DNA of 64,000 nucleotides from Escherichia coli (GTDB lineage: Bacteria > Pseudomonadota > Gammaproteobacteria > Enterobacterales > Enterobacteriaceae). The DNA lies in NCBI RefSeq assembly GCF_003334305.1, contig NZ_QOWS01000001.1; one strand, 5' to 3'. Each line of letters opens with the position of its first letter. Position 1 is the first letter of the stretch. Shown here in pieces: positions 1,209-56,775 of the stretch. The notes below the pieces were generated by a model that searched no databases, was not told where the DNA came from, and saw only the letters and a list, made by a program, of their open reading frames with translations. The position numbers were made by a program, and so were the translations under genes.

Positions 1209-1292
1209 GAAACGGATGATAACCTTAATAAATGCAGCTGTATGTGATCGGTTTCTAAGAATTTTCCATCCGGGAAAAATAATCGAAATTAA

Positions 1293-21990: not shown

Positions 21991-22011
21991 GCCTGATGCG
22001 TCGCATCAGGC
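21991..22011. repeat. REP-like palindromic element between convergent alkA and dgcE
   Basis: GCCTGATGCG/CGCATCAGGC inverted repeat. Confidence 0.5.
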
Positions 22012-25663: not shown

Positions 25664-26305
25664 ATGACTGATCAGTCTCATCAGTGCGTCATTATCGGTA
25701 TCGCTGGCGCATCGGCTTCCGGCAAGAGTCTTATTGCCAGTACCCTTTATCGTGAATTACGTGAGCAAGTCGGTGATGAACACATCGGCGTAATTCCCGA
25801 AGACTGCTATTACAAAGATCAAAGCCATCTGTCGATGGAAGAACGCGTTAAGACCAACTACGACCATCCCAGCGCGATGGATCACAGCCTGTTGCTTGAG
25901 CATTTACAAGCGTTGAAACGCGGCTCGGCAATTGACCTGCCGGTTTACAGCTATGTTGAACATACGCGTATGAAAGAAACGGTGACGGTTGAGCCGAAGA
26001 AGGTCATCATTCTCGAAGGCATTTTGTTGCTGACGGATGCGCGTTTGCGTGACGAACTTAACTTCTCCATTTTCGTTGATACCCCGCTGGATATCTGCCT
26101 GATGCGCCGCATCAAGCGTGACGTTAACGAGCGTGGGCGTTCAATGGATTCCGTGATGGCGCAATATCAAAAAACCGTGCGCCCGATGTTCCTGCAATTC
26201 ATTGAGCCTTCTAAACAATATGCGGACATTATCGTGCCGCGCGGCGGGAAAAACCGCATCGCGATCGATATATTGAAAGCGAAAATAAGTCAGTTCTTTG
26301 AATAA
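25664..26305 (+). CDS. udk: Uridine/cytidine kinase
   Basis: 213 aa from ATG at 25664 ([23 protein letters not shown]-loop); ORF-track start 25601 is an upstream extension. Confidence 0.95.
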
Positions 26306-28853: not shown

Positions 28854-28877
28854 GTTACCAGGTGACCTGTCCTGTAG

Positions 28878-28910
28878 GCCTGATAAGACGCGTAAAGCGT
28901 CGCATCAGGC
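28878..28910. repeat. REP element between convergent asmA and yegH
   Basis: GCCTGATAAGACGCG...CGTCGCATCAGGC palindrome. Confidence 0.5.
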
Positions 28911-31153: not shown

Positions 31154-31192
31154 CAGTGTATTGGTAGCTAAAAAGCCAGGGGCGGTAGCGTG
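31154..31192 (+). promoter_or_regulatory. JUMPstart element with ops site (GGCGGTAGCGTG) in the wza 5' leader; RfaH-dependent antitermination signal
   Basis: CAGTGTATTGGTAGCTAAAAAGCCAGGGGCGGTAGCGTG seen at 31154-31192, about 180 bp upstream of wza. Confidence 0.75.
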
Positions 31193-31370: not shown

Positions 31371-32510
31371 ATGATGAAATCCAAAATGAAATTGATGCCA
31401 TTATTGGTGTCAGTAACCTTGATAAGCGGTTGCACAGTACTTCCGGGCAGCAATATGTCGACGATGGGCAAAGACGTCATCAAACAGCAGGACGCTGATT
31501 TCGATCTCGACAAAATGGTGAATGTTTATCCGCTGACCCCGCGCCTGATTGACCAATTACGCCCACGCCCGAATGTAGCGCGCCCCAATATGACGCTGGA
31601 AAGCGAGATCGCGAATTACCAGTATCGCGTCGGGCCGGGGGACGTTCTTAATGTCACCGTCTGGGATCACCCGGAACTCACCACGCCAGCCGGTCAGTAC
31701 CGCAGCTCCAGCGACACCGGCAACTGGGTACAGCCTGACGGCACTATGTTTTACCCGTATATCGGCAAGGTTCACGTAGTTGGGAAAACGCTCGCTGAAA
31801 TCCGCAGTGATATTACCGGGCGCTTAGCGACGTACATCGCTGACCCGCAGGTGGACGTTAATATCGCCGCCTTCCGCTCACAAAAGGCCTATATCTCCGG
31901 ACAGGTGAATAAATCCGGCCAACAGGCGATCACCAACGTGCCACTGACCATTCTCGACGCCATCAACGCCGCAGGTGGCCTGACCGACACCGCTGACTGG
32001 CGCAACGTGGTGTTAACACACAATGGTCGTGAAGAACGCATTTCTTTGCAGGCGCTGATGCAAAATGGCGACCTCAATCAGAACCGACTGCTTTACCCCG
32101 GCGATATTCTCTATGTGCCGCGTAATGATGATCTGAAAGTATTTGTGATGGGTGAAGTGAAGAAACAGAGCACCCTGAAAATGGACTTTAGCGGCATGAC
32201 CCTGACTGAAGCTCTGGGCAATGCCGAAGGTATCGACATGACCACCTCCAACGCCAGCGGCATCTTTGTCATTCGTCCGCTGAAAGGCGAGGGTGGGCGT
32301 AACGGCAAGATTGCCAATATCTACCAGCTGGATATGTCCGATGCGACGTCGCTGGTGATGGCGACAGAATTCCGCCTGCAACCTTATGACGTGGTGTATG
32401 TCACCACCGCCCCGGTTTCCCGCTGGAACCGTCTGATCAATCAGTTGCTGCCAACTATTAGCGGTGTCCGTTACATGACGGATACAGCCAGCGACATTCA
32501 TAACTGGTAA
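31371..32510 (+). CDS. wza: Outer membrane polysaccharide export lipoprotein Wza
   Basis: 379 aa; lipobox LISGC; matches Wza. Confidence 0.95.
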
Positions 32511-35125: not shown

Positions 35126-35245
35126 GACATCCGCTGTCGGATGCGATGCTGACGCATCTTATCCGACCTACCTTCACGCCGCATCCGGCAAGCAAACCAG
35201 CTCCGTAGGCCGGATAAGGCGCTCACGCCGCATCCGGCAACAGAA
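35126..35245. repeat. REP/BIME cluster between wzc and wcaA
   Basis: Multiple GCCGGATGCGGCG / CCGCATCCGGC-type palindromic units. Confidence 0.6.
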
Positions 35246-35301
35246 CCCGTAAACAAGCTTATAAACCGGCAGAACATCTCGACACTCCGGGAGAACAACC
35301 T

Positions 35302-36141
35302 ATGAAAGACAATCCGCTGATTTCAATCTATATGCCGACCTGGAACCGCCAACAACTGGCGATTCGGGCGATAAAATCGGTCCTGCGCCAGGACTACAGC
35401 AACTGGGAGATGATCATCGTGGATGATTGCTCCACCTCCTGGGAACAACTGCAACAGTACGTCACTGCCCTCAACGATCCGCGTATTACCTACATTCACA
35501 ACGACATTAACAGCGGGGCGTGCGCGGTACGTAACCAGGCGATTATGCTGGCGCAAGGGGAATACATTACCGGGATCGATGACGATGATGAATGGACGCC
35601 CAACCGCCTGAGCGTCTTCCTCGCCCATAAACAGCAACTGGTCACTCACGCCTTTTTGTACGCTAACGACTACGTATGCCAGGGAGAAGTTTATTCCCAA
35701 CCAGCAAGCTTACCACTGTATCCCAAATCGCCGTACTCACGCCGCCTGTTCTATAAACGCAATATCATTGGCAATCAGGTTTTTACCTGGGCGTGGCGTT
35801 TCAAAGAGTGCTTGTTCGATACCGAACTGAAAGCAGCACAGGATTACGACATCTTCCTGCGGATGGTGGTGGAGTATGGCGAACCGTGGAAAGTGGAAGA
35901 GGCGACGCAGATCCTGCATATCAATCACGGTGAAATGCAGATCACCTCGTCACCGAAAAAATTCTCCGGGTACTTCCACTTTTACCGCAAGCACAAAGAT
36001 AAATTTGACCGTGCAAGCAAAAAATATCAGCTGTTTACCCTCTACCAGATCCGCAATAAACGTATGACCTGGCGCACTTTGCTGACGCTGCTGTCGGTGC
36101 GTAACGGCAAACGTCTGGCTGATGGTATTCGGGGGCGCTAA
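35302..36141 (+). CDS. wcaA: Colanic acid biosynthesis glycosyltransferase WcaA (GT2)
   Basis: 279 aa; GT2 motifs (SIYMPTWNR, DDDDEW). Confidence 0.9.
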   Translation: MKDNPLISIYMPTWNRQQLAIRAIKSVLRQDYSNWEMIIVDDCSTSWEQLQQYVTALNDPRITYIHNDINSGACAVRNQAIMLAQGEYITGIDDDDEWTPNRLSVFLAHKQQLVTHAFLYANDYVCQGEVYSQPASLPLYPKSPYSRRLFYKRNIIGNQVFTWAWRFKECLFDTELKAAQDYDIFLRMVVEYGEPWKVEEATQILHINHGEMQITSSPKKFSGYFHFYRKHKDKFDRASKKYQLFTLYQIRNKRMTWRTLLTLLSVRNGKRLADGIRGR

Positions 36142-36143
36142 AG

Positions 36144-36632
36144 ATGCTGGAAGATCTGCGTGCCAACAGCTGGAGTTTACGCCCGTGCTGCATGGTTCTT
36201 GCCTATCGTGTTGCTCATTTTTGTTCGGTGTGGCGCAAAAAGAACGTCCTCAACAATCTGTGGGCGGCCCCGCTGCTGGTGCTGTATCGCATTATCACCG
36301 AATGCTTTTTCGGTTATGAAATCCAGGCCGCCGCGACCATTGGCCGCCGCTTTACTATCCATCACGGTTACGCCGTAGTGATCAATAAAAACGTGGTAGC
36401 GGGGGATGATTTCACCATTCGCCACGGCGTCACTATCGGCAATCGTGGTGCCGATAACATGGCATGTCCACACATTGGCAACGGCGTCGAACTCGGTGCC
36501 AACGTCATTATTCTTGGTGATATCACGCTTGGTAACAACGTCACCGTGGGCGCGGGCAGCGTGGTGCTCGACTCTGTCCCGGACAACGCGCTGGTGGTGG
36601 GAGAAAAAGCGCGAGTGAAGGTAATTAAATGA
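36144..36632 (+). CDS. wcaB: Colanic acid acetyltransferase WcaB (hexapeptide repeat)
   Basis: 162 aa; left-handed beta-helix hexapeptide repeats. Confidence 0.9.
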   Translation: MLEDLRANSWSLRPCCMVLAYRVAHFCSVWRKKNVLNNLWAAPLLVLYRIITECFFGYEIQAAATIGRRFTIHHGYAVVINKNVVAGDDFTIRHGVTIGNRGADNMACPHIGNGVELGANVIILGDITLGNNVTVGAGSVVLDSVPDNALVVGEKARVKVIK

Positions 36633-37846
36633 ATATTCTGCAATTTAATGTGCGACTGGCGGAAGGCGGGGCGGCAGGTGTGGCGTTAGATCTCCATCAG
36701 CGTGCGCTGCAACAGGGGCTGGCGTCACATTTTGTCTACGGCTACGGCAAAGGCGGCAAAGAGAGCGTCAGCCATCAGAACTATCCGCAGGTCATCAAAC
36801 ATACGCCGCGGATGACCGCGATGGCGAACATTGCGTTGTTTCGTCTGTTTAATCGCGATCTGTTCGGCAATTTCAATGAGTTATATCGCACCATTACTCG
36901 CACCCCGGGGCCGGTGGTTCTGCATTTTCATGTGCTGCACAGCTACTGGCTAAATCTTAAGAGCGTGGTGCGCTTTTGCGAAAAGGTGAAAAACCATAAA
37001 CCGGATGTCACTCTGGTCTGGACGCTGCACGACCACTGGAGCGTTACCGGGCGCTGCGCCTTTACCGACGGTTGTGAAGGCTGGAAAACGGGCTGCCAGA
37101 AATGCCCGACCTTAAATAACTATCCGCCGGTGAAGATTGATCGCGCGCACCAGCTGGTGGCGGGCAAACGCCAGTTATTTCGTGAGATGCTGGCGCTGGG
37201 CTGTCAGTTTATTTCCCCCAGCCAGCATGTGGCTGACGCTTTCAATAGTCTGTACGGGCCAGGGCGTTGCCGGATTATCAATAATGGTATTGATATGGCA
37301 ACCGAAGCGATTCTGGCGGACTTGCCTCCGGTGCGCGAAACCCAGGGCAAGCCGAAAATCGCGGTGGTGGCGCATGACCTGCGTTACGACGGCAAGACTA
37401 ACCAGCAACTGGTGCGTGAGATGATGGCGCTGGGCGACAAAATTGAACTGCATACCTTCGGTAAGTTCTCGCCGTTCACCGCTGGCAACGTGGTTAATCA
37501 CGGCTTTGAAACCGACAAACGTAAGCTGATGAGCGCGCTCAATCAGATGGATGCGCTGGTGTTCAGTTCTCGCGTCGATAACTACCCGCTGATTTTGTGT
37601 GAGGCGCTATCGATTGGCGTGCCGGTGATTGCCACCCATAGCGATGCGGCGCGTGAAGTGCTGCAAAAATCCGGCGGTAAAACCGTCAGTGAAGAAGAGG
37701 TGCTGCAACTGGTGCAGTTAAGCAAACCGGAAATCGCGCAGGCGATATTTGGTACCACGCTGGCTGAGTTCAGCCAACGCAGCCGCGCCGCCTACAGTGG
37801 ACAACAGATGCTGGAGGAGTATGTCAACTTCTATCAGAATCTGTAG
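36629..37846 (+). CDS. wcaC: Colanic acid glycosyltransferase WcaC
   Basis: 405 aa; GT-B-like; operon position. Confidence 0.9.
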   Translation: MNILQFNVRLAEGGAAGVALDLHQRALQQGLASHFVYGYGKGGKESVSHQNYPQVIKHTPRMTAMANIALFRLFNRDLFGNFNELYRTITRTPGPVVLHFHVLHSYWLNLKSVVRFCEKVKNHKPDVTLVWTLHDHWSVTGRCAFTDGCEGWKTGCQKCPTLNNYPPVKIDRAHQLVAGKRQLFREMLALGCQFISPSQHVADAFNSLYGPGRCRIINNGIDMATEAILADLPPVRETQGKPKIAVVAHDLRYDGKTNQQLVREMMALGDKIELHTFGKFSPFTAGNVVNHGFETDKRKLMSALNQMDALVFSSRVDNYPLILCEALSIGVPVIATHSDAAREVLQKSGGKTVSEEEVLQLVQLSKPEIAQAIFGTTLAEFSQRSRAAYSGQQMLEEYVNFYQNL

Positions 37847-39038
37847 CTACCTGCTGCTGCCGCTGATCTACCTGCTGGTTAACGTCAAAATCGCCCAGCT
37901 TGGCGAAAGTTTCCCCATCACTATCGTCACTTTTTTACCTGTCTTGTTACTGCTGTTTTTAGAACGCATCAGCGTTAAAAAATTGATGATTGCCTTAGGG
38001 ATTGGTGCGGGACTCACGGCGTTTAACTACCTGTTTGGTCAGTCGCTGGATGCCGGTAAATACGTCACTTCAACCATGCTGTTTGTCTATATTGTGATCA
38101 TTATTGGCATGGTGTGGAGTATTCGTTTTAAAACAATTTCGCCACACAACCATCGCAAGATATTACGTTTCTTTTATCTGGTGGTCGGGCTGGTGGTGGC
38201 GCTGGCGGCGGTGGAGATGGCGCAAATTATCCTCACCGGCGGCAGCAGTATTATGGAGTCGATTTCGAAATATCTGATTTACAGCAACAGCTATGTACTG
38301 AATTTCATTAAATTCGGCGGTAAGCGTACGACAGCACTTTATTTCGAACCGGCATTTTTCGCTCTGGCATTAATCTCAATTTGGCTCAGCATCAAACAGT
38401 TTGGTATCAAAACGCCTAAAACCGATGCTATGATTCTCGCAGGAATAATATTATCCGGATCGTTTTCAGGGGTTATGACCTTTATCCTGTTTTATTTGCT
38501 GGAGTGGGCATTCCAATATCTGAATAAAGAGGCGATTAAGAAAAAGTTGCCGTTAGCATTGATTTCTCTGGCTGTATTCCTGGTTGGTGTGGTAATCGCG
38601 TTTCCTTATATTTCCACCCGTCTGGGCGATTTAGGTACGGAAGGATCGTCATCGTATTATCGTATTGTCGGTCCGCTGGTAATGGTCGGTTATTCTTTGA
38701 CCCATATTGACGGTGTAGTCAGATTTGGCTCACTTTATGAATATGTCGCATCATTCGGAATATTTAACGGTGCGGATGTCGGAAAAACCATAGACAATGG
38801 TTTGTATCTGCTGATTATTTATTTTTCCTGGTTCGCAGTGTTTTTATCGCTGTGGTACATGGGGAAAGTGATAAAAATGATGATCAACGCTTTTGGTGAT
38901 AACCGCAATTTTCGCGTGCAATTATATCTTTTCACTCCGGTATCGCTGTTTTTTACCGGTTCGATATTTAGCCCGGAATATGCATTTTTAATCGTCTGTC
39001 CGTTTATTTTGCGAAAAGCGTTAAATATTACGAGGTAA
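37821..39038 (+). CDS. wcaD: Colanic acid polymerase WcaD
   Basis: 405 aa from ATG at 37821 ([12 protein letters not shown]...); polytopic membrane protein. Confidence 0.9.
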
Positions 39039-39048
39039 GAATAAGAAC

Positions 39049-39795
39049 ATGTTGCTTAGCATAATCACTGTCGCGTTTCGTAACCTCGAAGGGATAGTCA
39101 AAACACATGCCTCGCTGGCGCATCTGGCGCAGGCGGAAGATATCAGCTTCGAATGGATTGTTGTCGATGGCGGTTCCAACGACGGCACCCGTGAGTATCT
39201 GGAAAATCTCAATGGTATCTTTAACCTACGCTTTGTCAGCGAGCCAGATAACGGTATCTACGACGCCATGAACAAAGGCATTGCGATGGCACAAGGCAAG
39301 TTCGCGTTGTTTCTCAACTCGGGCGATATTTTTCATCAGGATGCCGCAAATTTTGTCCGTAAGTTAAAAATGCAAAAAGATAACGTGATGATCACCGGCG
39401 ATGCGCTGCTGGATTTTGGCGACGGGCATAAAATTAAGCGTAGTGCTAAACCGGGTTGGTATATTTATCACAGCCTGCCCGCCAGCCATCAGGCGATATT
39501 TTTCCCGGTATCCGGCTTGAAAAAATGGCGTTATGACCTGGAATATAAAGTATCTTCCGATTACGCGCTGGCGGCTAAAATGTATAAAGCCGGTTATGCA
39601 TTTAAAAAACTCAATGGCCTGGTGTCTGAATTTTCCATGGGTGGGGTATCAACCACCAATAATATGGAATTGTGTGCTGACGCCAAAAAAGTCCAACGGC
39701 AAATATTACATGTGCCTGGCTTCTGGGCAGAATTATCCTGGCATTTACGCCAACGTACTACCTCAAAGACGAAAGCCTTATATAACAAAAGCTGA
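39049..39795 (+). CDS. wcaE: Colanic acid glycosyltransferase WcaE (GT2)
   Basis: 248 aa; GT2 N-terminal fold. Confidence 0.9.
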
Positions 39796-39810
39796 ATATA
39801 AGGGAAAACG

Positions 39811-40359
39811 ATGCAAGATTTAAGCGGTTTCTCGGTGCCGAAAGGGTTCCGGGGCGGCAACGCTATTAAAGTGCAATTATGGTGGGCAGTACAGGCAACA
39901 ATATTTGCCTGGTCGCCACAAGTATTGTATCGCTGGCGGGCTTTTTTATTACGTTTATTCGGCGCAAAAATAGGAAAAAACGTAGTTATTCGTCCGTCAG
40001 TAAAAATTACCTATCCGTGGAAATTAACCTTAGGTGATTACGCGTGGGTCGGCGATGACGTCAATTTATATACCCTCGGTGAAATAACCATTGGCGCACA
40101 TTCGGTGATATCGCAAAAAAGTTATTTATGCACCGGTAGCCACGACCATGCAAGTCAACATTTCACCATTAACGCCACGCCTATTGTGATTGGCGAGAAA
40201 TGCTGGCTGGCAACCGATGTCTTTGTTGCCCCAGGCGTCACAATCGGCGACGGCACCGTCGTGGGTGCACGAAGCAGTGTTTTTAAATCGCTTCCGGCAA
40301 ATGTGGTTTGCCGGGGGAATCCCGCAGTGGTGATACGCGAACGCGTTGAAACTGAATAA
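39811..40359 (+). CDS. wcaF: Colanic acid acetyltransferase WcaF (hexapeptide repeat)
   Basis: 182 aa; hexapeptide repeats. Confidence 0.9.
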   Translation: MQDLSGFSVPKGFRGGNAIKVQLWWAVQATIFAWSPQVLYRWRAFLLRLFGAKIGKNVVIRPSVKITYPWKLTLGDYAWVGDDVNLYTLGEITIGAHSVISQKSYLCTGSHDHASQHFTINATPIVIGEKCWLATDVFVAPGVTIGDGTVVGARSSVFKSLPANVVCRGNPAVVIRERVETE

Positions 40360-40384
40360 ATTCAAAAATACAGAGGAATAAGAC

Positions 40385-41506
40385 ATGTCAAAAGTCGCTC
40401 TCATCACCGGTGTAACCGGACAAGACGGTTCTTACCTGGCAGAGTTTCTGCTGGAAAAAGGTTACGAGGTGCATGGTATTAAGCGTCGCGCATCGTCATT
40501 CAACACCGAGCGCGTGGATCACATTTATCAGGATCCGCACACCTGCAACCCGAAATTCCATCTGCATTATGGCGACCTGAGTGATACCTCCAACCTGACG
40601 CGCATTTTGCGTGAAGTACAGCCGGATGAAGTGTACAACCTGGGCGCAATGAGCCACGTTGCGGTTTCTTTTGAGTCACCGGAATATACCGCAGACGTCG
40701 ATGCGATGGGTACGCTGCGCCTGCTCGAGGCGATCCGCTTCCTCGGTCTGGAAAAGAAAACCCGTTTCTATCAGGCTTCCACCTCTGAACTGTACGGTCT
40801 GGTGCAGGAAATTCCGCAGAAAGAAACCACGCCGTTCTACCCGCGATCTCCGTATGCGGTCGCCAAACTGTACGCCTACTGGATCACCGTTAACTACCGC
40901 GAATCCTACGGCATGTACGCTTGTAACGGAATTCTCTTCAACCATGAATCCCCGCGCCGCGGCGAAACCTTCGTTACCCGCAAAATCACCCGCGCAATCG
41001 CCAACATCGCCCAGGGGCTGGAGTCGTGCCTGTACCTCGGCAATATGGATTCCCTGCGTGACTGGGGCCACGCCAAAGACTACGTAAAAATGCAGTGGAT
41101 GATGCTGCAACAGGAACAGCCGGAAGATTTCGTTATCGCGACCGGCGTTCAGTACTCCGTGCGTCAGTTCGTGGAAATGGCAGCGGCACAGCTGGGCATC
41201 AAACTGCGCTTTGAAGGCACGGGTGTTGAAGAGAAGGGCATTGTGGTTTCCGTCACCGGGCATGACGCGCCGGGCGTTAAACCGGGTGATGTGATTATCG
41301 CCGTTGATCCGCGTTACTTCCGTCCGGCTGAAGTTGAAACGCTGCTCGGCGACCCGACCAAAGCGCACGAAAAACTGGGCTGGAAACCGGAAATCACCCT
41401 CAGAGAGATGGTGTCTGAAATGGTGGCTAATGACCTCGAAGCGGCGAAAAAACACTCTCTGCTGAAATCTCACGGCTACGACGTGGCGATCGCGCTGGAG
41501 TCATAA
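40385..41506 (+). CDS. gmd: GDP-mannose 4,6-dehydratase
   Basis: 373 aa; SDR Rossmann motif [10 protein letters not shown]. Confidence 0.95.
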
Positions 41507-41508
41507 GC

Positions 41509-42474
41509 ATGAGTAGACAACGCATTTTTATCGCTGGCCATCGCGGAATGGTCGGTTCTGCCATCAGGCGGCAGCTCGAACAGCGCGGTGATGTGGAACT
41601 GGTATTACGCACCCGCGACGAGCTGAACCTGCTGGACAGCCGCGCGGTGCATGATTTCTTTGCCAGCGAACGCATTGACCAGGTCTATCTGGCGGCGGCG
41701 AAAGTGGGCGGCATTGTTGCCAACAACACCTATCCGGCGGATTTCATCTACCAGAACATGATGATTGAGAGCAACATCATTCACGCCGCGCATCAGAACG
41801 ACGTGAACAAACTGCTGTTTCTCGGATCGTCCTGCATCTACCCGAAACTGGCAAAACAGCCGATGGCAGAAAGCGAGCTGTTGCAGGGCACGCTGGAGCC
41901 GACTAACGAGCCTTATGCCATTGCCAAAATCGCCGGGATCAAACTGTGCGAATCTTACAACCGCCAGTATGGACGCGATTACCGCTCGGTCATGCCAACC
42001 AACCTGTACGGGCCACACGACAACTTCCATCCGAGTAACTCGCATGTGATCCCAGCATTGCTGCGTCGCTTCCACGAGGCGACGGCACAGAATGCACCGG
42101 ACGTGGTGGTGTGGGGCAGCGGTACACCGATGCGTGAATTTCTGCACGTCGATGATATGGCGGCGGCAAGCATTCATGTGATGGAGCTGGCGCACGAAGT
42201 CTGGCTGGAAAACACCCAGCCGATGTTGTCGCACATTAACGTCGGTACGGGCGTTGACTGCACTATCCGCGAGCTGGCGCAAACCATCGCCAAAGTGGTG
42301 GGTTACAAAGGTCGGGTGGTTTTTGATGCCAGTAAACCGGATGGTACGCCGCGCAAACTGCTGGATGTGACGCGCCTGCATCAGCTTGGCTGGTATCACG
42401 AAATCTCACTGGAAGCGGGGCTTGCCAGCACTTACCAGTGGTTCCTTGAGAATCAAGACCGCTTTCGGGGGTAA
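41509..42474 (+). CDS. fcl: GDP-L-fucose synthase (GDP-4-keto-6-deoxymannose epimerase/reductase)
   Basis: 321 aa; matches Fcl/WcaG. Confidence 0.95.
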
Positions 42475-42476
42475 TG

Positions 42477-42956
42477 ATGTTTTTACGTCAGGAAGACTTT
42501 GCCACGGTAGTGCGCTCCACCCCGCTTGTCTCTCTCGACTTTATTGTCGAGAACAGTCGCGGCGAGTTTCTGCTTGGCAAAAGAACCAACCGCCCGGCGC
42601 AGGGTTACTGGTTTGTGCCGGGAGGGCGCGTGCAGAAAGACGAAACGCTGGAAGCCGCATTTGAGCGGCTGACGATGGCGGAACTGGGGCTGCGTCTGCC
42701 GATAACAGCAGGCCAGTTTTACGGTGTCTGGCAGCACTTTTATGACGATAACTTCTCCGGCATGGATTTCACCACTCACTATGTGGTGCTCGGTTTTCGC
42801 TTCAGAGTATCGGAAGAAGAGCTGTTACTGCCGGATGAGCAGCATGACGATTACCGCTGGCTGACGCCGGATGCACTGCTCGCCAGTGACAATGTTCACG
42901 CTAACAGCCGCGCCTATTTTCTCGCTGAGAAGCGTGCCGGAGTACCCGGATTATGA
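42477..42956 (+). CDS. gmm: GDP-mannose mannosyl hydrolase (Nudix)
   Basis: 159 aa from the second ATG; Nudix fold; alternative ATG at 42474. Confidence 0.9.
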
Positions 42957-44176
42957 AAATACTGGTCTACGGCATTAACTACTCGCCGGAGTTAACCGGC
43001 ATCGGCAAATACACCGGCGAGATGGTGGAATGGCTGGCGGCACAAGGTCATGAGGTGCGGGTCATTACCGCACCGCCTTACTACCCGCAGTGGCAGGTGG
43101 GTGAGAACTATTCCGCCTGGCGGTACAAACGAGAAGAGGGGGCCGCCACGGTGTGGCGCTGCCCGCTGTACGTGCCAAAACAGCCGAGCACCCTGAAACG
43201 CCTGTTGCATCTCAGCAGTTTTGCCGTCAGCAGTTTCTTTCCTCTGATGGCGCAACGTCGCTGGAAGCCGGATCGCATTATTGGCGTGGTGCCAACGCTG
43301 TTTTGCACGCCGGGAATGCGCCTGCTGGCGAAACTCTCTGGCGCGCGTACCGTGCTGCATATTCAGGATTACGAAGTGGACGCCATGCTGGGGCTGGGCC
43401 TTGCCGGAAAAGGCAAAGGCGGCAAAGTGGCACAGCTGGCGACGGCGTTCGAACGTAGCGGACTGCATAACGTCGATAACGTCTCCACGATTTCGCGTTC
43501 GATGATGAATAAAGCCATCGAAAAAGGCGTGGCGGCAGAAAACGTCATCTTCTTCCCCAACTGGTCAGAAATTGCCCGTTTTCAGCATGTTGCAGATGCC
43601 GATGTTGATGCCCTTCGTAACCAGCTTGGCCTGCCGGATAACAAAAAAATCATTCTTTACTCCGGCAATATTGGTGAAAAGCAGGGGCTGGAAAACGTTA
43701 TTGAAGCTGCCGATCGCCTGCGCGATGAACCGCTGATTTTTGCCATTGTCGGGCAGGGCGGCGGCAAAGCGCGGCTGGAAAAAATGGCGCAGCAGCGTGG
43801 ACTGCGCAACATGCAATTTTTTCCGCTGCAATCGTATGACGCTTTACCCGCACTGCTGAAGATGGGCGATTGCCATCTGGTGGTGCAAAAACGCGGCGCG
43901 GCAGATGCCGTATTGCCGTCGAAACTGACCAATATTCTGGCGGTAGGCGGTAACGCGGTGATTACTGCAGAAGCCCACACAGAACTGGGACAGCTTTGCG
44001 AAACCTTTCCGGGCATTGCGGTTTGCGTAGAGCCGGAATCGGTCGAGGCGCTGGTGGCGGGGATCCGTCAGGCGCTCCTGCTGCCCAAACACAACACGGT
44101 GGCACGTGAATATGCCGAACGCACTCTCGATAAAGAGAACGTGTTACGTCAATTTATAAATGATATTCGGGGATAA
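42953..44176 (+). CDS. wcaI: Colanic acid glycosyltransferase WcaI (GT4-like)
   Basis: 407 aa; ATG overlaps gmm stop. Confidence 0.9.
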
Positions 44177-44178
44177 TT

Positions 44179-45615
44179 ATGGCGCAGTCGAAACTCTATC
44201 CAGTTGTGATGGCAGGTGGCTCCGGTAGCCGCTTATGGCCGCTTTCCCGCGTACTTTACCCCAAGCAGTTTTTATGCCTGAAAGGCGATCTCACCATGCT
44301 GCAAACCACCATCTGCCGCCTGAACGGCGTGGAGTGCGAAAGCCCGGTGGTGATTTGCAATGAGCAGCACCGCTTTATTGTCGCGGAACAGCTGCGCCAA
44401 CTGAACAAACTCACCGAGAACATTATTCTCGAACCGGCAGGGCGTAATACTGCACCTGCCATTGCGCTGGCGGCGCTGGCGGCAAAACGTCATAGCCCGG
44501 AGAGCGACCCGTTAATGCTGGTATTGGCGGCGGATCATGTGATTGCCGATGAAGACGCGTTCCGTGCCGCCGTGCGTAATGCCATGCCATATGCCGAAGC
44601 GGGCAAGCTGGTGACCTTCGGCATTGTGCCGGATCTACCAGAAACCGGTTATGGCTATATTCGTCGCGGTGAAGTGTCTGCGGGTGAGCAGGATACGGTG
44701 GCCTTTGAAGTGGCGCAGTTTGTCGAAAAACCAAATCTGGAAACCGCGCAGGCCTATGTGGCAAGCGGCGAATATTACTGGAACAGCGGCATGTTCCTGT
44801 TCCGCGCCGGACGCTATCTCGAAGAACTGAAAAAATATCGCCCGGATATTCTCGATGCCTGCGAAAAAGCGATGAGCGCCGTCGATCCGGATCTCGATTT
44901 TATTCGCGTGGATGAAGAAGCGTTTCTCGCCTGCCCGGAAGAGTCGGTGGATTACGCGGTCATGGAACGTACGGCAGATGCCGTTGTGGTACCGATGGAT
45001 GCGGGCTGGAGCGATGTCGGTTCCTGGTCTTCATTATGGGAGATCAGCGCCCACACCGCCGAGGGCAACGTTTGCCACGGCGATGTAATTAATCACAAAA
45101 CTGAAAACAGCTATGTGTACGCCGAATCTGGCCTGGTCACCACCGTCGGGGTGAAAGATCTGGTGGTGGTGCAGACCAAAGATGCGGTGCTGATTGCCGA
45201 CCGTAACGCGGTGCAGGATGTGAAAAAAGTGGTCGAGCAGATCAAAGCCGATGGTCGCCATGAGCATCGGGTGCATCGCGAAGTCTATCGCCCGTGGGGC
45301 AAATATGACTCTATCGACGCAGGCGACCGCTACCAGGTGAAACGCATCACCGTGAAACCGGGCGAGGGCTTGTCGGTACAGATGCACCATCACCGCGCGG
45401 AACACTGGGTGGTTGTCGCGGGAACGGCAAAAGTCACTATTGACGGTGATATCAAACTGCTTGGTGAAAACGAGTCCATTTATATTCCGCTGGGGGCGAC
45501 GCACTGCCTGGAAAACCCGGGGAAAATTCCGCTCGATTTAATTGAAGTGCGCTCCGGCTCTTATCTCGAAGAGGATGATGTGGTGCGCTTCGCGGATCGC
45601 TACGGACGGGTGTAA
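44179..45615 (+). CDS. cpsB: Mannose-1-phosphate guanylyltransferase
   Basis: 478 aa; nucleotidyltransferase N-domain ([13 protein letters not shown]) plus cupin C-domain. Confidence 0.95.
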
Positions 45616-45616
45616 A

Positions 45617-45718
<102 letters not shown>

Positions 45719-45807
45719 ATGAATGCCGAACCGCGATGTAAATAACGACAAAAACAAAATTGGCCGCTTCGGTCAGGGCCAACTATTGCCTGAAAAAGGG
45801 TAACGAC

Positions 45808-47178
45808 ATGAAAAAATTAACCTGCTTTAAAGCCTATGATATTCGTGGAAAATTAGGCGAAGAACTGAATGAAGATATTGCCTGGCGCATTGGTCGTGCC
45901 TATGGCGAATTTCTCAAACCGAAAACCATTGTGTTAGGCGGTGATGTCCGTCTCACCAGCGAAACCTTAAAACTGGCGCTGGCAAAAGGTTTACAGGATG
46001 CGGGCGTTGATGTGCTGGATATCGGCATGTCCGGCACCGAAGAGATCTATTTCGCCACGTTCCATCTCGGCGTGGATGGCGGTATTGAAGTTACTGCCAG
46101 CCATAATCCGATGGATTACAACGGCATGAAACTGGTGCGCGAAGGGGCTCGCCCGATCAGCGGCGATACCGGACTGCGCGATGTCCAGCGTCTGGCAGAA
46201 GCCAACGACTTTCCTCCCGTTGATGCAACCAAACGCGGTCGCTATCAGCAAATCAATCTGCGTGACGCTTACGTTGATCACCTGTTCGGTTATATCAACG
46301 TCAAAAACCTCACGCCGCTCAAGCTGGTGATCAACTCCGGGAACGGCGCAGCGGGTCCAGTAGTGGACGCCATTGAAGCCCGCTTTAAAGCCCTCGGCGC
46401 GCCCGTGGAATTGATCAAAGAGCACAACACGCCGGACGGTAATTTCCCCAACGGTATTCCTAACCCGCTACTGCCAGAATGCCGCGACGACACCCGCAAT
46501 GCGGTCATCAAACACGGCGCGGATATGGGCATTGCCTTTGACGGTGATTTTGATCGCTGCTTCCTGTTTGACGAAAAAGGGCAGTTTATTGAGGGCTACT
46601 ACATTGTCGGCCTGCTGGCAGAAGCATTCCTCGAAAAAAATCCCGGCGCGAAGATCATCCACGATCCACGTCTCTCCTGGAACACTGTTGATGTGGTGAC
46701 CGCCGCGGGCGGCACGCCGGTAATGTCGAAAACCGGACACGCCTTTATTAAAGAACGTATGCGCAAGGAAGACGCCATCTACGGTGGCGAAATGAGTGCC
46801 CACCATTACTTCCGTGATTTCGCTTACTGCGACAGCGGCATGATCCCGTGGCTGCTGGTAGCCGAACTGGTGTGCCTGAAAGGAAAAACGCTGGGCGAAC
46901 TGGTGCGCGACCGGATGGCGGCATTCCCGGCAAGCGGTGAGATCAACAGCAAACTGGCGCAACCCGTTGAGGCGATTAACCGCGTGGAACAGCATTTTAG
47001 CCGTGAGGCTCTGGCGGTGGATCGCACCGATGGCATCAGCATGACCTTTGCCGACTGGCGCTTTAATCTGCGCACCTCCAATACCGAACCGGTGGTGCGC
47101 CTGAATGTGGAATCGCGCGGTGATGTGCCACTGATGGAAGCGCGAACGCGAACTCTGCTGGCGTTGCTGAACGAGTAA
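45808..47178 (+). CDS. cpsG: Phosphomannomutase
   Basis: 456 aa from ATG at 45808 ([14 protein letters not shown]...); active-site TASHNP; ORF-track start 45760 is a TTG extension. Confidence 0.95.
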
Positions 47179-47232
47179 TGTCGGATCTTCCCTTACCCCA
47201 TTGCGGGTAAGGGGCTAATAACAGGAACAACG

Positions 47233-48627
47233 ATGACAAATCTAAAAAAGCGCGAGCGAGCGAAAACCAATGCATCGTTAATCTCTATGGTGCAACGCTT
47301 TTCAGATATCACCATCATGTTTGCCGGACTATGGCTGGTTTGCGAAGTGAGCGGACTGTCATTCCTCTACATGCACCTGTTGGTGGCGCTGATTACGCTG
47401 GTGGTGTTCCAGATGCTGGGCGGCATCACCGATTTTTATCGCTCATGGCGCGGTGTTCGGGCAGCGACAGAATTTGCCCTGTTGCTACAAAACTGGACCT
47501 TAAGCGTGATTTTCAGCGCCGGACTGGTGGCGTTCAACAATGATTTCGACACGCAACTGAAAATCTGGCTGGCGTGGTATGGGCTGACCAGCATCGGACT
47601 GGTGGTTTGCCGTTCATGTATTCGCATTGGGGCGGGCTGGCTGCGTAATCATGGCTATAACAAGCGCATGGTCGCGGTGGCGGGGGATTTAGCCGCCGGA
47701 CAAATGCTGATGGAGAGCTTCCGTAATCAGCCGTGGTTAGGGTTTGAAGTGGTGGGCGTTTACCACGACCCGAAACCGGGCGGCGTTTCTAACGACTGGG
47801 CGGGCAATCTGCAACAGCTGGTCGAGGATGCTAAAGCGGGTAAGATTCATAACGTCTATATCGCGATGCAAATGTGCGACGGCGCGCGAGTGAAAAAACT
47901 GGTCCATCAACTGGCGGACACCACCTGTTCGGTGCTGCTGATCCCCGATGTCTTTACCTTCAACATTCTCCATTCACGTCTCGAAGAGATGAACGGCGTT
48001 CCGGTGGTGCCGCTGTATGACACGCCGCTTTCCGGGGTTAACCGCCTGCTAAAACGTGCGGAAGACATTGTGCTGGCGACGCTGATCTTGCTGCTGATCT
48101 CCCCGGTGCTGTGCTGTATTGCGCTGGCGGTGAAACTCAGTTCACCAGGGCCGGTTATTTTCCGCCAGACTCGCTACGGCATGGATGGCAAGCCGATCAA
48201 AGTGTGGAAGTTCCGTTCCATGAAAGTGATGGAGAACGACAAAGTGGTGACCCAGGCGACGCAGAACGATCCGCGCGTCACTAAAGTGGGGAACTTTCTG
48301 CGCCGCACCTCGCTGGATGAACTGCCGCAGTTTATCAATGTGCTGACCGGCGGGATGTCGATTGTCGGTCCGCGTCCGCACGCGGTAGCGCATAACGAAC
48401 AGTATCGCCAGCTCATTGAAGGCTACATGCTGCGCCACAAAGTGAAACCGGGCATTACCGGCTGGGCGCAGATTAATGGCTGGCGCGGCGAAACCGACAC
48501 GCTGGAGAAAATGGAAAAACGCGTCGAGTTCGACCTTGAGTACATCCGCGAATGGAGCGTCTGGTTCGATATCAAAATCGTTTTCCTGACGGTATTCAAA
48601 GGTTTCGTTAACAAAGCGGCATATTGA
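47233..48627 (+). CDS. wcaJ: UDP-glucose:undecaprenyl-phosphate glucose-1-phosphate transferase WcaJ
   Basis: 464 aa; polytopic N-terminus and C-terminal sugar transferase domain. Confidence 0.95.
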   Translation: MTNLKKRERAKTNASLISMVQRFSDITIMFAGLWLVCEVSGLSFLYMHLLVALITLVVFQMLGGITDFYRSWRGVRAATEFALLLQNWTLSVIFSAGLVAFNNDFDTQLKIWLAWYGLTSIGLVVCRSCIRIGAGWLRNHGYNKRMVAVAGDLAAGQMLMESFRNQPWLGFEVVGVYHDPKPGGVSNDWAGNLQQLVEDAKAGKIHNVYIAMQMCDGARVKKLVHQLADTTCSVLLIPDVFTFNILHSRLEEMNGVPVVPLYDTPLSGVNRLLKRAEDIVLATLILLLISPVLCCIALAVKLSSPGPVIFRQTRYGMDGKPIKVWKFRSMKVMENDKVVTQATQNDPRVTKVGNFLRRTSLDELPQFINVLTGGMSIVGPRPHAVAHNEQYRQLIEGYMLRHKVKPGITGWAQINGWRGETDTLEKMEKRVEFDLEYIREWSVWFDIKIVFLTVFKGFVNKAAY

Positions 48628-48628
48628 T

Positions 48629-50107
48629 ATGAGCTTACGTGAAAAAACCATCAGCGGCGCGAAGTGGTCGGCGATTGCCACGGTGATCATCATCGGCCTC
48701 GGGCTGGTGCAGATGACCGTGCTGGCGCGGATTATCGACAACCACCAGTTCGGCCTGCTGACTGTGTCGCTGGTGATTATCGCGCTGGCAGATACGCTTT
48801 CTGACTTCGGTATCGCTAACTCGATTATTCAGCGAAAAGAAATCAGCCACCTTGAACTCACCACGCTGTACTGGCTGAACGTCGGGCTGGGGCTTGTGGT
48901 GTGCGTGGCGGTGTTTTTGTTGAGTGATGCCATTGGCGACGTGCTGAATAACCCGGACCTGGCCCCGTTGATTAAAACATTGTCGCTGGCGTTTGTGGTG
49001 ATCCCCCACGGGCAACAGTTCCGCGCGTTGATGCAGAAGGAGCTGGAGTTCAACAAAATCGGCATGATCGAAACCAGCGCGGTACTGGCGGGCTTCACTT
49101 TTACGGTGGTTAGCGCCCATTTCTGGCCGCTGGCGATGACCGCGATCCTCGGTTATCTGGTCAATAGCGCGGTAAGAACGCTGCTGTTTGGCTACTTTGG
49201 CCGCAAAATTTATCGCCCCGGTCTGCACTTCTCGCTGGCGTCGGTGGCACCGAACTTACGCTTTGGTGCCTGGCTGACGGCGGACAGCATCATCAACTAT
49301 CTCAACACCAACCTTTCAACGCTGGTGCTGGCGCGTATTCTCGGCGCGGGCGTGGCAGGGGGATACAACCTGGCGTACAACGTGGCCGTTGTGCCGCCGA
49401 TGAAGCTGAACCCAATCATCACCCGCGTGTTGTTTCCGGCGTTTGCCAAAATTCAGGACGACACCGAAAAGCTGCGCGTCAACTTCTACAAGCTGCTGTC
49501 GGTGGTGGGGATTATCAACTTTCCGGCGCTGCTCGGGCTGATGGTGGTGTCAAATAACTTTGTACCGCTGGTATTTGGTGAGAAGTGGAGCAGCATTATT
49601 CCGGTGCTGCAATTGCTGTGTATTGTGGGTCTGCTGCGCTCCGTGGGTAACCCGATTGGTTCGCTGCTGATGGCGAAAGCGCGGGTCGATATCAGCTTTA
49701 AATTCAACGTATTCAAAACATTTCTGTTTATTCCGGCGATTGTTATTGGTGGGCAGATGGCCGGCGCAATCGGCGTCACGCTTGGCTTCCTGCTGGTGCA
49801 GATTATCAACACCATTCTGAGTTACTTCGTGATGATTAAACCGGTTCTTGGTTCCAGTTATCGCCAGTACATCCTGAGTTTGTGGCTGCCGTTTTATCTC
49901 TCGCTGCCGACGCTGGTGGTCAGTTATGCGCTGGGTATTGTGCTGAAAGGGCAACTGGCGCTGGGGATGCTGCTGGCGGTGCAAATAGCCGCGGGCGTGC
50001 TGGCGTTTGTGGTGATGATTGTGCTGTCGCGCCATCCGCTGGTGGTGGAAGTGAAGCGTCAGTTTTGTCGCAGCGAAAAAATGAAAATGCTTTTACGGGC
50101 GGGGTGA
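48629..50107 (+). CDS. wzxC: Colanic acid repeat-unit flippase WzxC
   Basis: 492 aa; polytopic MOP-family membrane protein. Confidence 0.9.
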   Translation: MSLREKTISGAKWSAIATVIIIGLGLVQMTVLARIIDNHQFGLLTVSLVIIALADTLSDFGIANSIIQRKEISHLELTTLYWLNVGLGLVVCVAVFLLSDAIGDVLNNPDLAPLIKTLSLAFVVIPHGQQFRALMQKELEFNKIGMIETSAVLAGFTFTVVSAHFWPLAMTAILGYLVNSAVRTLLFGYFGRKIYRPGLHFSLASVAPNLRFGAWLTADSIINYLNTNLSTLVLARILGAGVAGGYNLAYNVAVVPPMKLNPIITRVLFPAFAKIQDDTEKLRVNFYKLLSVVGIINFPALLGLMVVSNNFVPLVFGEKWSSIIPVLQLLCIVGLLRSVGNPIGSLLMAKARVDISFKFNVFKTFLFIPAIVIGGQMAGAIGVTLGFLLVQIINTILSYFVMIKPVLGSSYRQYILSLWLPFYLSLPTLVVSYALGIVLKGQLALGMLLAVQIAAGVLAFVVMIVLSRHPLVVEVKRQFCRSEKMKMLLRAG

Positions 50108-50139
50108 GTTGCTGTTTTCGGTTCCGACAACGGTTGCCG

Positions 50140-50225
50140 GGTGCAGCGTAAAACGCCTTATCCATCCTACGGTTCTGTGCTCGGGACCTGTAGGCCTGAT
50201 AAGACGCGCCAGCGTCGCATCAGGC
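50140..50225. repeat. REP/BIME cluster between wzxC and wcaK
   Basis: GCCTGATAAGACGCGCCAGCGTCGCATCAGGC and flanking units. Confidence 0.6.
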
Positions 50226-50286
50226 AAAAAGCGGCAACGAACACAACAAACACAGCCTCACCTGGCATCAAATTTATGAGGAAAAA

Positions 50287-56736: not shown

Positions 56737-56775
56737 CAGTGCTCTGGTAGCTGTAAAGCCAGGGGCGGTAGCTTG
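56737..56775 (+). promoter_or_regulatory. JUMPstart element with ops-like site (GGCGGTAGCTTG) ahead of the O-antigen cluster
   Basis: CAGTGCTCTGGTAGCTGTAAAGCCAGGGGCGGTAGCTTG; near-identical to the wza JUMPstart at 31154. Confidence 0.7.

What the first reader, a model, noticed from the sequence alone, without database searches (positions are those of the whole stretch)
35126..50225. REP/BIME clusters punctuate the colanic acid operon at three junctions
Palindromic REP clusters lie after wzc (35126-35245), after cpsB (45617-45718) and after wzxC (50140-50225). Each is intragenic to one long co-directional operon, where they could act as mRNA stabilisers or partial terminators that set differential expression of the export, precursor and assembly segments.
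Basis: partly seen in the sequence, partly recalled or inferred. Interest (0 to 1): 0.2.

Follow-up and report, generated by a model that had tools for sequence, protein, structure and literature searches.

The report
Ordinary REP repeats between colanic-acid genes
The three palindrome clusters are real but are ordinary, already published E. coli REP repeats sitting in the few gaps of the colanic-acid operon, and their number varies so much between strains (0 to 12 copies) that any effect on expression is a strain-specific adjustment, not a fixed design.

Summary
The window holds the E. coli colanic-acid (wza to wcaM) operon. Canonical REP units lie after wzc (35136-35238), after cpsB (45617-45717) and after wzxC (50136-50225), far above chance.

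The elements are not new. Iguchi et al. 2011 (PMC3158064) reported REPs, with insertion/deletion polymorphism, in exactly these three spacers.

Across 5,426 complete E. coli genomes all three sites are polymorphic:
- wzc|wcaA: 1, 1.5 or 2.5 REPs, never none in the sample.
- cpsB|cpsG: 0, 2 or 4 REPs.
- wzxC|wcaK: 0 to 12 REPs in 96-97-nt tandem units, or a different repeat family.

None is followed by a U tract, so none is an intrinsic terminator. Each folds into hairpins of -19 to -22 kcal/mol.

The stabiliser / partial-terminator idea is the standard REP model. It is plausible for wzc|wcaA, where a stem-loop attenuator is already cited in the literature and where 52 of 64 other Enterobacteriaceae species carry some strong palindrome. 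It is untested here. The REPs at the other two junctions are dispensable.

In passing I found a covarying non-REP hairpin at cpsG|wcaJ and an algC RNA motif upstream of cpsG.

Verdict: already known, low interest.

The parts
35136..35171 (+). J1 REP unit a (Y-like, GTCGGATGCG...CTTATCCGACCTAC). It starts 11 nt after the wzc stop codon (35122-35124).
   Evidence: Hairpin dG -19.4 kcal/mol.
35174..35190 (-). J1 half-REP (TCACGCCGCATCCGGCA). It is a direct repeat of the head of unit b and marks the breakpoint of the 127-128-nt allele.
   Evidence: Allele comparison with L082.
35205..35238 (-). J1 REP unit b (Y type). This is the only J1 REP present in K-12 and O157.
   Evidence: (0 mismatches). 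Hairpin dG -20.9 kcal/mol.
45617..45629 (-). J2 half-REP (CGTCGCATCAGGC) 1 nt after the cpsB stop codon. It is a 13-nt direct repeat of 45705-45717. It is all that remains in K-12.
   Evidence: It can pair with the head of the next REP (dG -18.9 kcal/mol).
45637..45670 (+). J2 REP (Y type).
   Evidence: 2 mismatches. Hairpin dG -19.2 kcal/mol.
45682..45717 (-). J2 REP (Z1-like), tail to tail with the Y unit across an 11-nt linker.
   Evidence: Hairpin dG -21.9 kcal/mol.
45630..45717 (.). 88-nt REP-doublet unit that is absent in K-12-type alleles and duplicated in 281-nt alleles.
   Evidence: Window against K-12. Span classes 313/401/489.
50136..50170 (+). J3 degenerate REP (Y-derived), 28 nt after the wzxC stop codon.
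   Evidence: tail with 2 mismatches. Weak hairpin, dG -8.6 kcal/mol.
50190..50225 (-). J3 REP (Z1-like).
   Evidence: Hairpin dG -21.9 kcal/mol.
50127..50233 (.). The whole J3 insert relative to the natural empty site (strain 98203, 72-nt spacer). It is flanked by CAACG direct repeats (50128-50132 and 50235-50239). Other strains amplify it in 96-97-nt units, up to 12 REPs.
31154..31192 (+). Context: JUMPstart element with the ops site GGCGGTAGCGTG (31181-31192) upstream of wza. This is the RfaH loading site for the whole operon.
   Evidence: Rfam RF01707, 57.3 bits. Sequence.
45754..45803 (+). Context: algC RNA motif. This is the conserved, non-REP part of the cpsB|cpsG spacer, directly upstream of the cpsG ATG (45808).
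   Evidence: Rfam RF02929, 77.3 bits against a gathering score of 33.8.
47189..47214 (+). Context: conserved non-REP hairpin in the cpsG|wcaJ spacer. This is the fourth structured junction.

Best explanation
These are ordinary members of the E. coli REP (palindromic unit) family, arranged as inverted doublets of BIME/REPIN type. They have colonised the only sizeable non-coding gaps of the wza-to-wcaM colanic-acid operon. They expand and contract there by recombination between repeat copies, and possibly by RAYT-mediated mobilisation.

They are transcribed as part of the single Rcs/RfaH-dependent polycistronic mRNA. Each unit folds into a hairpin of about -20 kcal/mol with no U tract.

The most likely consequence (inferred, not shown here) is the generic REP effect. 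The hairpins block 3'-to-5' exonucleases, so the upstream mRNA segment outlives the downstream one. They also cause modest, partly Rho-dependent attenuation. Together these give upstream-biased expression.

The effect is most likely to matter at wzc|wcaA, which separates the export genes wza-wzb-wzc from the rest. In this strain the first REP there also lies 11 nt from the wzc stop codon, within the published under-16-nt range for translational down-tuning.

At cpsB|cpsG and wzxC|wcaK the REPs are dispensable. At most they are a strain-variable dial.
For: Identity:
- Consensus matches and chance controls.
- Extragenic position.
- Many close copies per genome (median 11 places).
- Published as REPs at exactly these three spacers (PMC3158064).

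Turnover:
- K-12 differs at all three junctions.
- Systematic 60-genome samples give three J1 alleles (92, about 127 and 177 nt), J2 alleles of about 100-104, 192 and 281 nt, and J3 alleles from 71 to about 660 nt in 96-97-nt steps. REP counts of 2, 4, 8 and 12 were verified in sequence.
- Allele breakpoints lie in direct repeats.

RNA structure:
- z about -5 for each spacer.
- Unit hairpins of -19 to -22 kcal/mol.

Not intrinsic terminators.

One transcription unit:
- JUMPstart/ops upstream of wza.
- RcsB-dependence of wzb through wcaK (PMC3673037).

Generic REP mechanism:
- Preprint 10.64898/2026.03.23.713779, PMC6061677, PMC12306157.

J1 specifically:
- The cps operon is said to contain a stem-loop attenuator right after wzc (PMC2516531), and the same is described in Klebsiella cps (PMC3438125).
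- All 53 sampled E. coli genomes with the junction keep at least one REP there.
- 52 of 64 other species have a strongly structured J1, built from different repeat families.
- Rcs-induced fold changes fall from wza 47x and wzb 45x to wzc 17x and wcaA 11x (PMC5105897).
Against: - No direct transcript data for this locus. The Term-seq supplements of PMC7815308 that were held as text list no 3' ends in these genes, as expected for a silent operon.
- The published fold changes already drop within wzc and decline gradually. wcaE is an outlier at 72x. This does not show a step at the REPs.
- REP-free natural alleles exist at J2 and J3. Nine to twelve species have unstructured J1 spacers of 10-28 nt. 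The hairpins are therefore not required for colanic-acid production.
- RfaH-modified polymerase resists Rho and hairpin pausing (established knowledge). This should blunt the attenuator half of the model.
- J1 occupancy could reflect insertion opportunity rather than selection.
Confidence: 0.6

Rival explanations
1. Functionally neutral passengers. The REP doublets are selfish or recombination-amplified repeats that accumulate wherever insertion does no harm. In this tightly packed operon that means only the few junctions where genes are not translationally coupled. Any expression effect is negligible.
For: - Of the 19 gene junctions, 14 are overlaps or gaps of 15 nt or less in the window, so few sites are available.
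- Presence/absence and copy-number polymorphism occurs at all three sites, and alleles assort independently among strains.
- Natural empty sites exist.
- A different repeat family (boxC-like CCCTCTCC) occupies J3 in some E. coli.
- A partial ERIC-like element sits at wcaD|wcaE in another strain.
- In most other genera J3 is about 30 nt and bare.
- REP types and orientations at J1 differ even among Escherichia, Salmonella and Citrobacter.
Against: - J1 never lacks a REP in the 53 sampled E. coli genomes that have the junction.
- 81% of other species have a strong palindrome at J1 but only 22% at J3.
- The neighbouring cpsG|wcaJ hairpin keeps its pairing through compensatory changes. Stem-loops at junctions of this operon can therefore be under selection.
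- Genome-wide and single-locus data show that REPs usually do shift neighbouring expression.
Confidence: 0.3
2. Translational down-tuning of the upstream gene. A REP hairpin closer than 16 nt to a stop codon stalls the terminating ribosome. This leads to mRNA cleavage and tmRNA tagging and lowers the output of the upstream protein (Wzc, and possibly CpsB) in this strain (the Liang-Rudd-Deutscher mechanism).
For: - The rule is summarised in PMC12306157.
- In the window the J1 REP begins 11 nt after the wzc stop codon.
- At J2, a hairpin formed by the half-REP and the head of the next REP begins 1 nt after the cpsB stop codon (dG -18.9 kcal/mol).
Against: - It is allele-specific. In K-12 and O157 the J1 REP starts 24 nt after the stop codon, and K-12 has no hairpin at J2.
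- The J3 REP is 28 nt from the stop codon.
- At J2 the full REP is 21 nt away, and the proximal hairpin competes with the REP's own fold.
- No protein data exist.
Confidence: 0.2
3. DNA-level role. The clusters act as gyrase, IHF or Pol I binding sites that relieve supercoiling in a roughly 23-kb, strongly induced operon full of membrane proteins, or as recombination hot spots that help exchange of the adjacent O-antigen region.
For: - Iguchi et al. found REP indels coinciding with breaks in sequence similarity at wcaK-wzxC and suggested a role in O-antigen locus exchange.
- Allele breakpoints here lie in REP direct repeats.
- Protein binding to REP/BIME is described in the literature (references listed).
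Against: - The 2026 preprint found no chromosome-organising role for REPs.
- No IHF-type motif is evident in the linkers (reading; not formally scanned).
- Recombination at repeats is a consequence of repetition, not evidence of function.
Confidence: 0.1
4. Intrinsic (Rho-independent) terminators that divide the cluster into separate transcription units.
For: Strong GC-rich hairpins.
Against: - No T run follows any unit on the + strand, and the terminator scan finds none at the REPs (sequence).
- No promoter-like site lies in the spacers.
- wcaK remains RcsB-dependent.
Confidence: 0.02

Closest known systems
REP sequences in the wcaA-wzc, cpsG-cpsB and wcaK-wzxC spacers of E. coli O157 strains (Iguchi et al. 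2011, PLoS One 6:e23250, PMC3158064)
   Same: The same three junctions, the same repeat family and the same kind of polymorphism. In that paper wcaA-wzc was always occupied, and cpsG-cpsB and wcaK-wzxC gained or lost 2-4 REPs.
   Different: Nothing essential. This work adds allele frequencies across 5,426 genomes, alleles of up to 12 REPs, the empty sites, and the cross-genus comparison.
Intercistronic REPs of malE-malF and hisJ-hisQ (Newbury 1987, Stern 1988) and REP325 in yjdM-yjdN (Harris et al. 2026 preprint)
   Same: REPs lie between co-transcribed genes. The hairpins have no U tract. The expected effect is upstream stabilisation plus partial, partly Rho-dependent attenuation (references).
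   Different: Those effects were measured; here they are inferred. This operon is RfaH-controlled (ops at 31181-31192), which should weaken Rho-dependent attenuation.
Stem-loop attenuator immediately downstream of wzc in group 1 capsule and Klebsiella cps loci, and as cited for the colanic-acid operon
   Same: The same position, at the boundary between the wza-wzb-wzc export genes and the biosynthesis genes, in a JUMPstart/RfaH operon.
   Different: In E. coli colanic acid the stem-loop is a REP, with 1 to 2.5 copies depending on the strain. In other genera the site holds unrelated palindromic repeats. Attenuator activity was not tested here.
BIMEs as a source of intergenic polymorphism (Bachellier et al. 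1997) and REPIN doublets mobilised by RAYT
   Same: Inverted Y/Z doublets, tandem amplification in fixed-length units, and strain-to-strain variation.
   Different: The linker motifs that define BIME classes were not checked against a reference. A RAYT gene cannot be looked for within the window.
REP within 15 nt of a stop codon as a translational down-regulator (Liang, Rudd and Deutscher 2015, as summarised in PMC12306157)
   Same: The J1 REP starts 11 nt after the wzc stop codon in this strain.
   Different: This is not true of the commoner 92-nt allele (24 nt) or of J3 (28 nt). It is untested.

Membership tests
REP / palindromic unit (PU) family of E. coli | An imperfect palindrome of about 35 nt matching the Y or Z consensus, with the GTAG/CTAC tetranucleotide at the tail. 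| tested here: met
   Five of the six full units fold at -19 to -22 kcal/mol. The sixth (50136-50170) is degenerate, with a hairpin of -8.6 kcal/mol. The consensus strings were written from memory, but they are confirmed by exact recurrence elsewhere in E. coli genomes.
REP / palindromic unit (PU) family of E. coli | Extragenic location. | tested here: met
   All units lie between a stop codon and the next start codon.
REP / palindromic unit (PU) family of E. coli | Many copies per genome. | tested here: met
   The J2 and J3 queries hit a median of 11 places per genome (range 2-30) across 5,426 genomes, even though megablast needs 28-nt exact words.
BIME (mosaic of alternating Y and Z units with defined linker motifs) | Units in alternating orientation, a Y unit paired with a Z unit, and amplifiable in tandem. 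| tested here: met
   J2 and J3 are Y(+)/Z1-like(-) tail-to-tail doublets. Tandem arrays of 2, 4, 8 and 12 units occur at a 96-97-nt period in other strains.
BIME (mosaic of alternating Y and Z units with defined linker motifs) | Class-defining linker motifs (L with an IHF site, S, and others). | not tested
   No reference set of linker motifs was available. The BIME class is left unassigned.
REPIN / RAYT system | A cognate RAYT (TnpA-REP) gene in the same genome. | not testable with these tools
   Only a 64-kb window of this genome is given.
Intrinsic terminator | A GC-rich hairpin followed directly by a U tract. | tested here: not met
   No such site on the + strand at any of the three clusters (sequence).
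REP/BIME-associated Rho-dependent attenuator | Reduced downstream transcription that is relieved by bicyclomycin. | not testable with these tools
   The only supporting hint is the C>G, A-rich unstructured 60 nt after the J1 and J3 clusters (C19/G11 and C15/G10). Translation restarts about 60 nt downstream, and RfaH is expected to oppose Rho.
REP translational down-regulator (stop-codon-proximal REP) | The REP hairpin begins fewer than 16 nt after the stop codon. | tested here: inconclusive
   J1 is 11 nt (met). At J2 the full REP is 21 nt away, but an alternative hairpin starts 1 nt after the stop codon. J3 is 28 nt (not met). K-12 J1 is 24 nt (not met).
wzc-proximal stem-loop attenuator of Wzy-dependent capsule/EPS operons | A stable stem-loop in the spacer after wzc, in an operon headed by JUMPstart/ops. 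| tested here: met
   J1 cluster dG -54 kcal/mol. JUMPstart at 31154-31192. 52 of 64 other species also have a structured J1.
wzc-proximal stem-loop attenuator of Wzy-dependent capsule/EPS operons | A demonstrated drop in transcription across the stem-loop. | not testable with these tools
   Only indirect published fold changes are available: wza 47x, wzb 45x, wzc 17x, wcaA 11x.

The most novel reading that the evidence does not exclude
Stable stem-loops at the few uncoupled junctions of the colanic-acid operon may be a selected RNA 'punctuation' layer that different lineages build from whatever palindromic repeat they have.
- REPs in Escherichia, Salmonella and Citrobacter, and CCCTCTCC-type repeats in Enterobacter, Kluyvera, Kosakonia and Buttiauxella, occupy wzc|wcaA in 81% of species.
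- A separate hairpin at cpsG|wcaJ keeps its pairing through compensatory changes across genera.
- The 0-to-12-copy REP array at wzxC|wcaK would then be a natural copy-number dial on wcaK-wcaL-wcaM expression (pyruvylation and late steps) among E. coli lineages.
Probability: 0.25. Interest if true: 0.35.

Novelty: already known. Interest (0 to 1): 0.12.

Why it matters
As it stands this is routine annotation. REPs at these three junctions were published in 2011, and the proposed role is the standard REP model.

It would matter modestly if the allelic series proved functional. Natural E. coli strains would then carry ready-made promoter-independent expression variants of a stress-induced exopolysaccharide operon. 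These are 1 to 2.5 REPs after wzc, and 0 to 12 REPs before wcaK. That series would be a convenient natural test bed for the still-debated in vivo role of REPs.

Tried and rejected
- A fuzzy-regex scan for whole REP consensus sequences timed out. It was replaced by mismatch scans of the head and tail motifs.
- The local copy of the NC_000913 annotation lists only CDS features in this region, so curated REP names could not be taken from it.
- The supplements of the E. coli 3'-end map that were held as text (PMC7815308) contain no entry for wzc, wcaA, cpsB, cpsG, wzxC or wcaK. This is uninformative because the operon is silent in standard culture. No supplements are held for PMC6061677.
- The intrinsic-terminator reading was rejected: there is no U tract.
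- Internal promoters were rejected: no promoter-like site lies in the spacers on the + strand.
- RNAalifold on a MAFFT alignment of the cpsG|wcaJ spacers returned no structure, because indels misalign the stems. It was replaced by per-sequence folding with loop-anchored pair counts and shuffle controls.
- Orthology of the J1 REP across Escherichia, Salmonella and Citrobacter was considered and rejected. Type, number and orientation differ.
- A review on group 1 capsule export (PMC5290995) had nothing on attenuators.
Full report
**What is there**

The window carries the E. coli colanic-acid cluster on the + strand. The genes are wza 31371-32510, wzb, wzc (ending at 35124), wcaA-F, gmd, fcl, gmm, wcaI, cpsB 44179-45615, cpsG 45808-47178, wcaJ, wzxC 48629-50107, then wcaK, wcaL and wcaM (ending at 54189).

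Of the 19 gene junctions, 14 are overlaps or gaps of 15 nt or less. Only four exceed 50 nt:
- wzc|wcaA: 177 nt, called J1 here.
- cpsB|cpsG: 192 nt, J2.
- cpsG|wcaJ: 54 nt.
- wzxC|wcaK: 179 nt, J3.

- J1: 35136-35171 (+), a half unit at 35174-35190 (-), and 35205-35238 (-). The last is a perfect match to the degenerate REP pattern I searched with.
- J2: a half unit at 45617-45629 (-), 45637-45670 (+), and 45682-45717 (-).
- J3: a degenerate unit at 50136-50170 (+) and 50190-50225 (-).

The REP tail motif occurs 8 times in the window against 0.46 expected, and six of those are in these spacers. The spacer RNAs fold with z of about -5. Five of the six full units form hairpins of -19 to -22 kcal/mol.

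**It is already published**

Iguchi et al. [quoted passage not shown] They note that wcaA-wzc always keeps one, and that the other two gain or lose two or four. They also note that some indels coincide with recombination junctions.

**Variation within E. coli**

K-12 MG1655 differs from the window at all three junctions:
- J1 has one REP (92 nt).
- J2 keeps only the 13-nt half unit (104 nt).
- J3 has four REPs (275 nt).

I took evenly spaced 60-genome samples from the ranked hits among 5,426 complete genomes. Allele lengths below are inferred from how far each 401-nt query spans in the genome record; only the alleles cited to searches were read in sequence.
- J1 (53 genomes with the junction): 13 have 177 nt, 10 have about 127 nt, and 30 have 92 nt. 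Every J1 allele read in sequence keeps at least one full REP.
- J2 (51 genomes): 5 have 281 nt (inferred four REPs), 29 have 192 nt (two REPs), one is intermediate, one matches only partially, and about 15 have about 100-104 nt with no full REP.
- J3 (51 genomes): 6 have the empty site (about 71-72 nt), 8 have 179 nt, 14 have 275 nt, and smaller numbers have 371, 468, 564 and about 660 nt. Three carry a 161-nt allele, and the one read in sequence holds a boxC-like CCCTCTCC repeat in place of REPs. Two have about 145 nt, one about 284 nt, and eight match only partially.

REP counts of 2, 4, 8 and 12 in 96-97-nt tandem units were verified in sequence.

Alleles at the three sites assort independently among strains. 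Breakpoints lie in direct repeats:
- The 13-nt CGTCGCATCAGGC at J2.
- TCACGCCGCATCCGGCA at J1.
- CAACG at J3.

This is the behaviour expected of BIME-type repeats.

**Variation across genera**

A scan with WcaI recovered 80 loci from other Enterobacteriaceae species.
- J3 has a median length of 30-31 nt. Only 16 of 72 species have a strongly structured J3.
- J2 has a baseline of about 105-110 nt, which is the algC motif region.
- J1 has a median length of 103-109 nt and is strongly structured (MFE of -20 kcal/mol or lower) in 52 of 64 species.
- The J1 structures are built from different elements: CCCTCTCC-type palindromic repeats in 31 species, E. coli-type REPs in 6, and other hairpins in 15. 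Twelve species have weak or no structure, and nine of these have spacers of only 10-28 nt.
- Even among Escherichia, Salmonella and Citrobacter, the type, number and orientation of the J1 REPs differ. The site is re-occupied repeatedly rather than inherited as one element.

**How it most likely works**

*Shown.* The units are REPs. They lie inside a unit headed by a JUMPstart/ops element (31154-31192, with ops at 31181-31192). They form strong hairpins. None is followed by a U tract, and no promoter-like site lies in the spacers.

*From the literature.*
- REP hairpins define the 3' ends of Rho-terminated transcripts and protect them from PNPase and RNase II (PMC6061677).
- REP325 both attenuates downstream transcription about 8-10-fold, partly through Rho, and stabilises the upstream mRNA. 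REP-separated tandem pairs are upstream-biased genome-wide, with large scatter (preprint).
- REPs closer than 16 nt to a stop codon can lower translation of the upstream gene (PMC12306157).
- The colanic-acid operon is described as having a stem-loop attenuator right after wzc (PMC2516531). Klebsiella cps loci have one at the same place (PMC3438125).

*Inferred.* In this strain the REPs probably give some upstream-biased mRNA abundance, most plausibly at J1. RfaH is expected to blunt the Rho-dependent part (established knowledge of ops/RfaH). The J1 REP is 11 nt from the wzc stop codon, and a hairpin starts 1 nt after the cpsB stop codon. The translational mechanism is therefore possible here, but not in K-12, where the J1 distance is 24 nt and J2 has no hairpin.

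*Indirect transcript data.*
- All tested genes from wzb to wcaK are RcsB-dependent. This implies read-through of all three junctions.
- Induction falls from wza 47x and wzb 45x to wzc 17x, wcaA 11x and wcaC 5.7x, with wcaE an outlier at 72x. This is a gradient, not clean steps.

**Judgement on the interpretation**

The generic mechanism is reasonable. The idea that the three clusters 'set' module-level expression is not supported. J2 separates two enzymes of one pathway. J2 and J3 are dispensable in nature. Copy number is highly variable. Only J1 has a case for selection, and insertion opportunity remains a live alternative.

**Other things seen**

The cpsG|wcaJ spacer holds a hairpin at 47189-47214 that is not a REP. 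In 31 of 33 species with short spacers, an 8-15-bp stem (median dG -18.5 kcal/mol) ends 17-21 nt (24 nt in one species) before the wcaJ ATG. The stems have 28 different 5' arms, and pair types swap at stem positions 4-6. The median z is -2.8. No Rfam family covers it. This is the best evidence that junction stem-loops in this operon can be under selection.

The conserved part of J2 is the Rfam algC motif (45754-45803, 77 bits).

**Verdict**

Real, ordinary and already known. Interest is low. The allelic series and the cross-genus pattern at wzc|wcaA are a modest lead for anyone testing REP function.

Noticed in passing
window 47189-47214 (cpsG|wcaJ spacer 47179-47232): A conserved non-REP hairpin (UCCCUUACCC-CAUUGC-GGGUAAGGGG) with no U tract, not in Rfam. 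In 31 of 33 short-spacer Enterobacteriaceae species an 8-15-bp stem ends 17-21 nt (24 in one) before the wcaJ ATG. There are 28 different 5' arms, pair types differ between species at the same stem positions (consistent with compensatory change), and the median z is -2.8. In other genera it is replaced or extended by CCCTCTCC-type repeats.
   Followed up: partly
window 45754-45803: An algC RNA motif (Rfam RF02929, 77.3 bits) lies immediately upstream of the cpsG (phosphomannomutase) start codon. It is the conserved, non-REP part of the cpsB|cpsG spacer and accounts for the roughly 105-110-nt baseline spacer in other genera. As far as I know, its function is unknown.
   Followed up: partly
L087 159-319 (E. 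coli AF14, wzxC|wcaK spacer): Some E. coli strains carry a 161-nt J3 allele with a boxC-like CCCTCTCACCCTAACCCTCTCCCC...GGGG palindromic repeat in place of REPs. This is the same repeat type that fills wzc|wcaA in Enterobacter, Kluyvera and Buttiauxella.
   Followed up: partly
L082 20494-20573 (E. coli WP4-S17-ESBL-03, wcaD|wcaE spacer): An 80-nt spacer (10 nt in the window) contains what looks like a partial ERIC/IRU element (...GGGTGAGCGAGGAAAACCAACGCACATGCAGCTTGAAGTATGACGGG). This is identified from memory of the ERIC consensus. The same motif sits in the wzc|wcaA spacer of Citrobacter sp. Res13 (L044).
   Followed up: no
window 50128-50132 and 50235-50239: The 107-nt J3 insert (50127-50233) is flanked by the 5-bp direct repeat CAACG, which is present once in the natural empty site (L086). 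This fits either a target-site duplication or a microhomology deletion.
   Followed up: no
window 54347-55342: A 331-aa ORF lies between wcaM and galF that K-12 lacks (174-nt spacer there). It belongs to the NAD-dependent sugar epimerase/dehydratase (SDR) family. All NCBIfam matches are below their curated cut-offs, so its exact activity is unassigned.
   Followed up: partly
window 56737-56775: A second JUMPstart element (56.7 bits) lies downstream of galF, presumably heading the O-antigen cluster.
   Followed up: no
window 15329-16134 (-) and 1125-1210 (-): Three tandem SIB antitoxin RNA genes (138-150 bits each) and the CyaR sRNA gene, by Rfam.
   Followed up: no
window 28874-28910, 21987-22011, 26097-26117: Further REP or REP-like palindromes lie outside the operon. 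One full Z-type unit is near 28874-28910, probably the asmA/yegH convergent junction by comparison with L082. There are two short head-to-head GCCTGATGCG palindromes.
   Followed up: no
L083 27229-28596 (E. coli O157:H7 Z852): cpsG is annotated as a pseudogene ('missing N-terminus') in this O157:H7 genome, directly downstream of the J2 REP doublet. I did not check whether this is a real lesion or a start-codon call.
   Followed up: no
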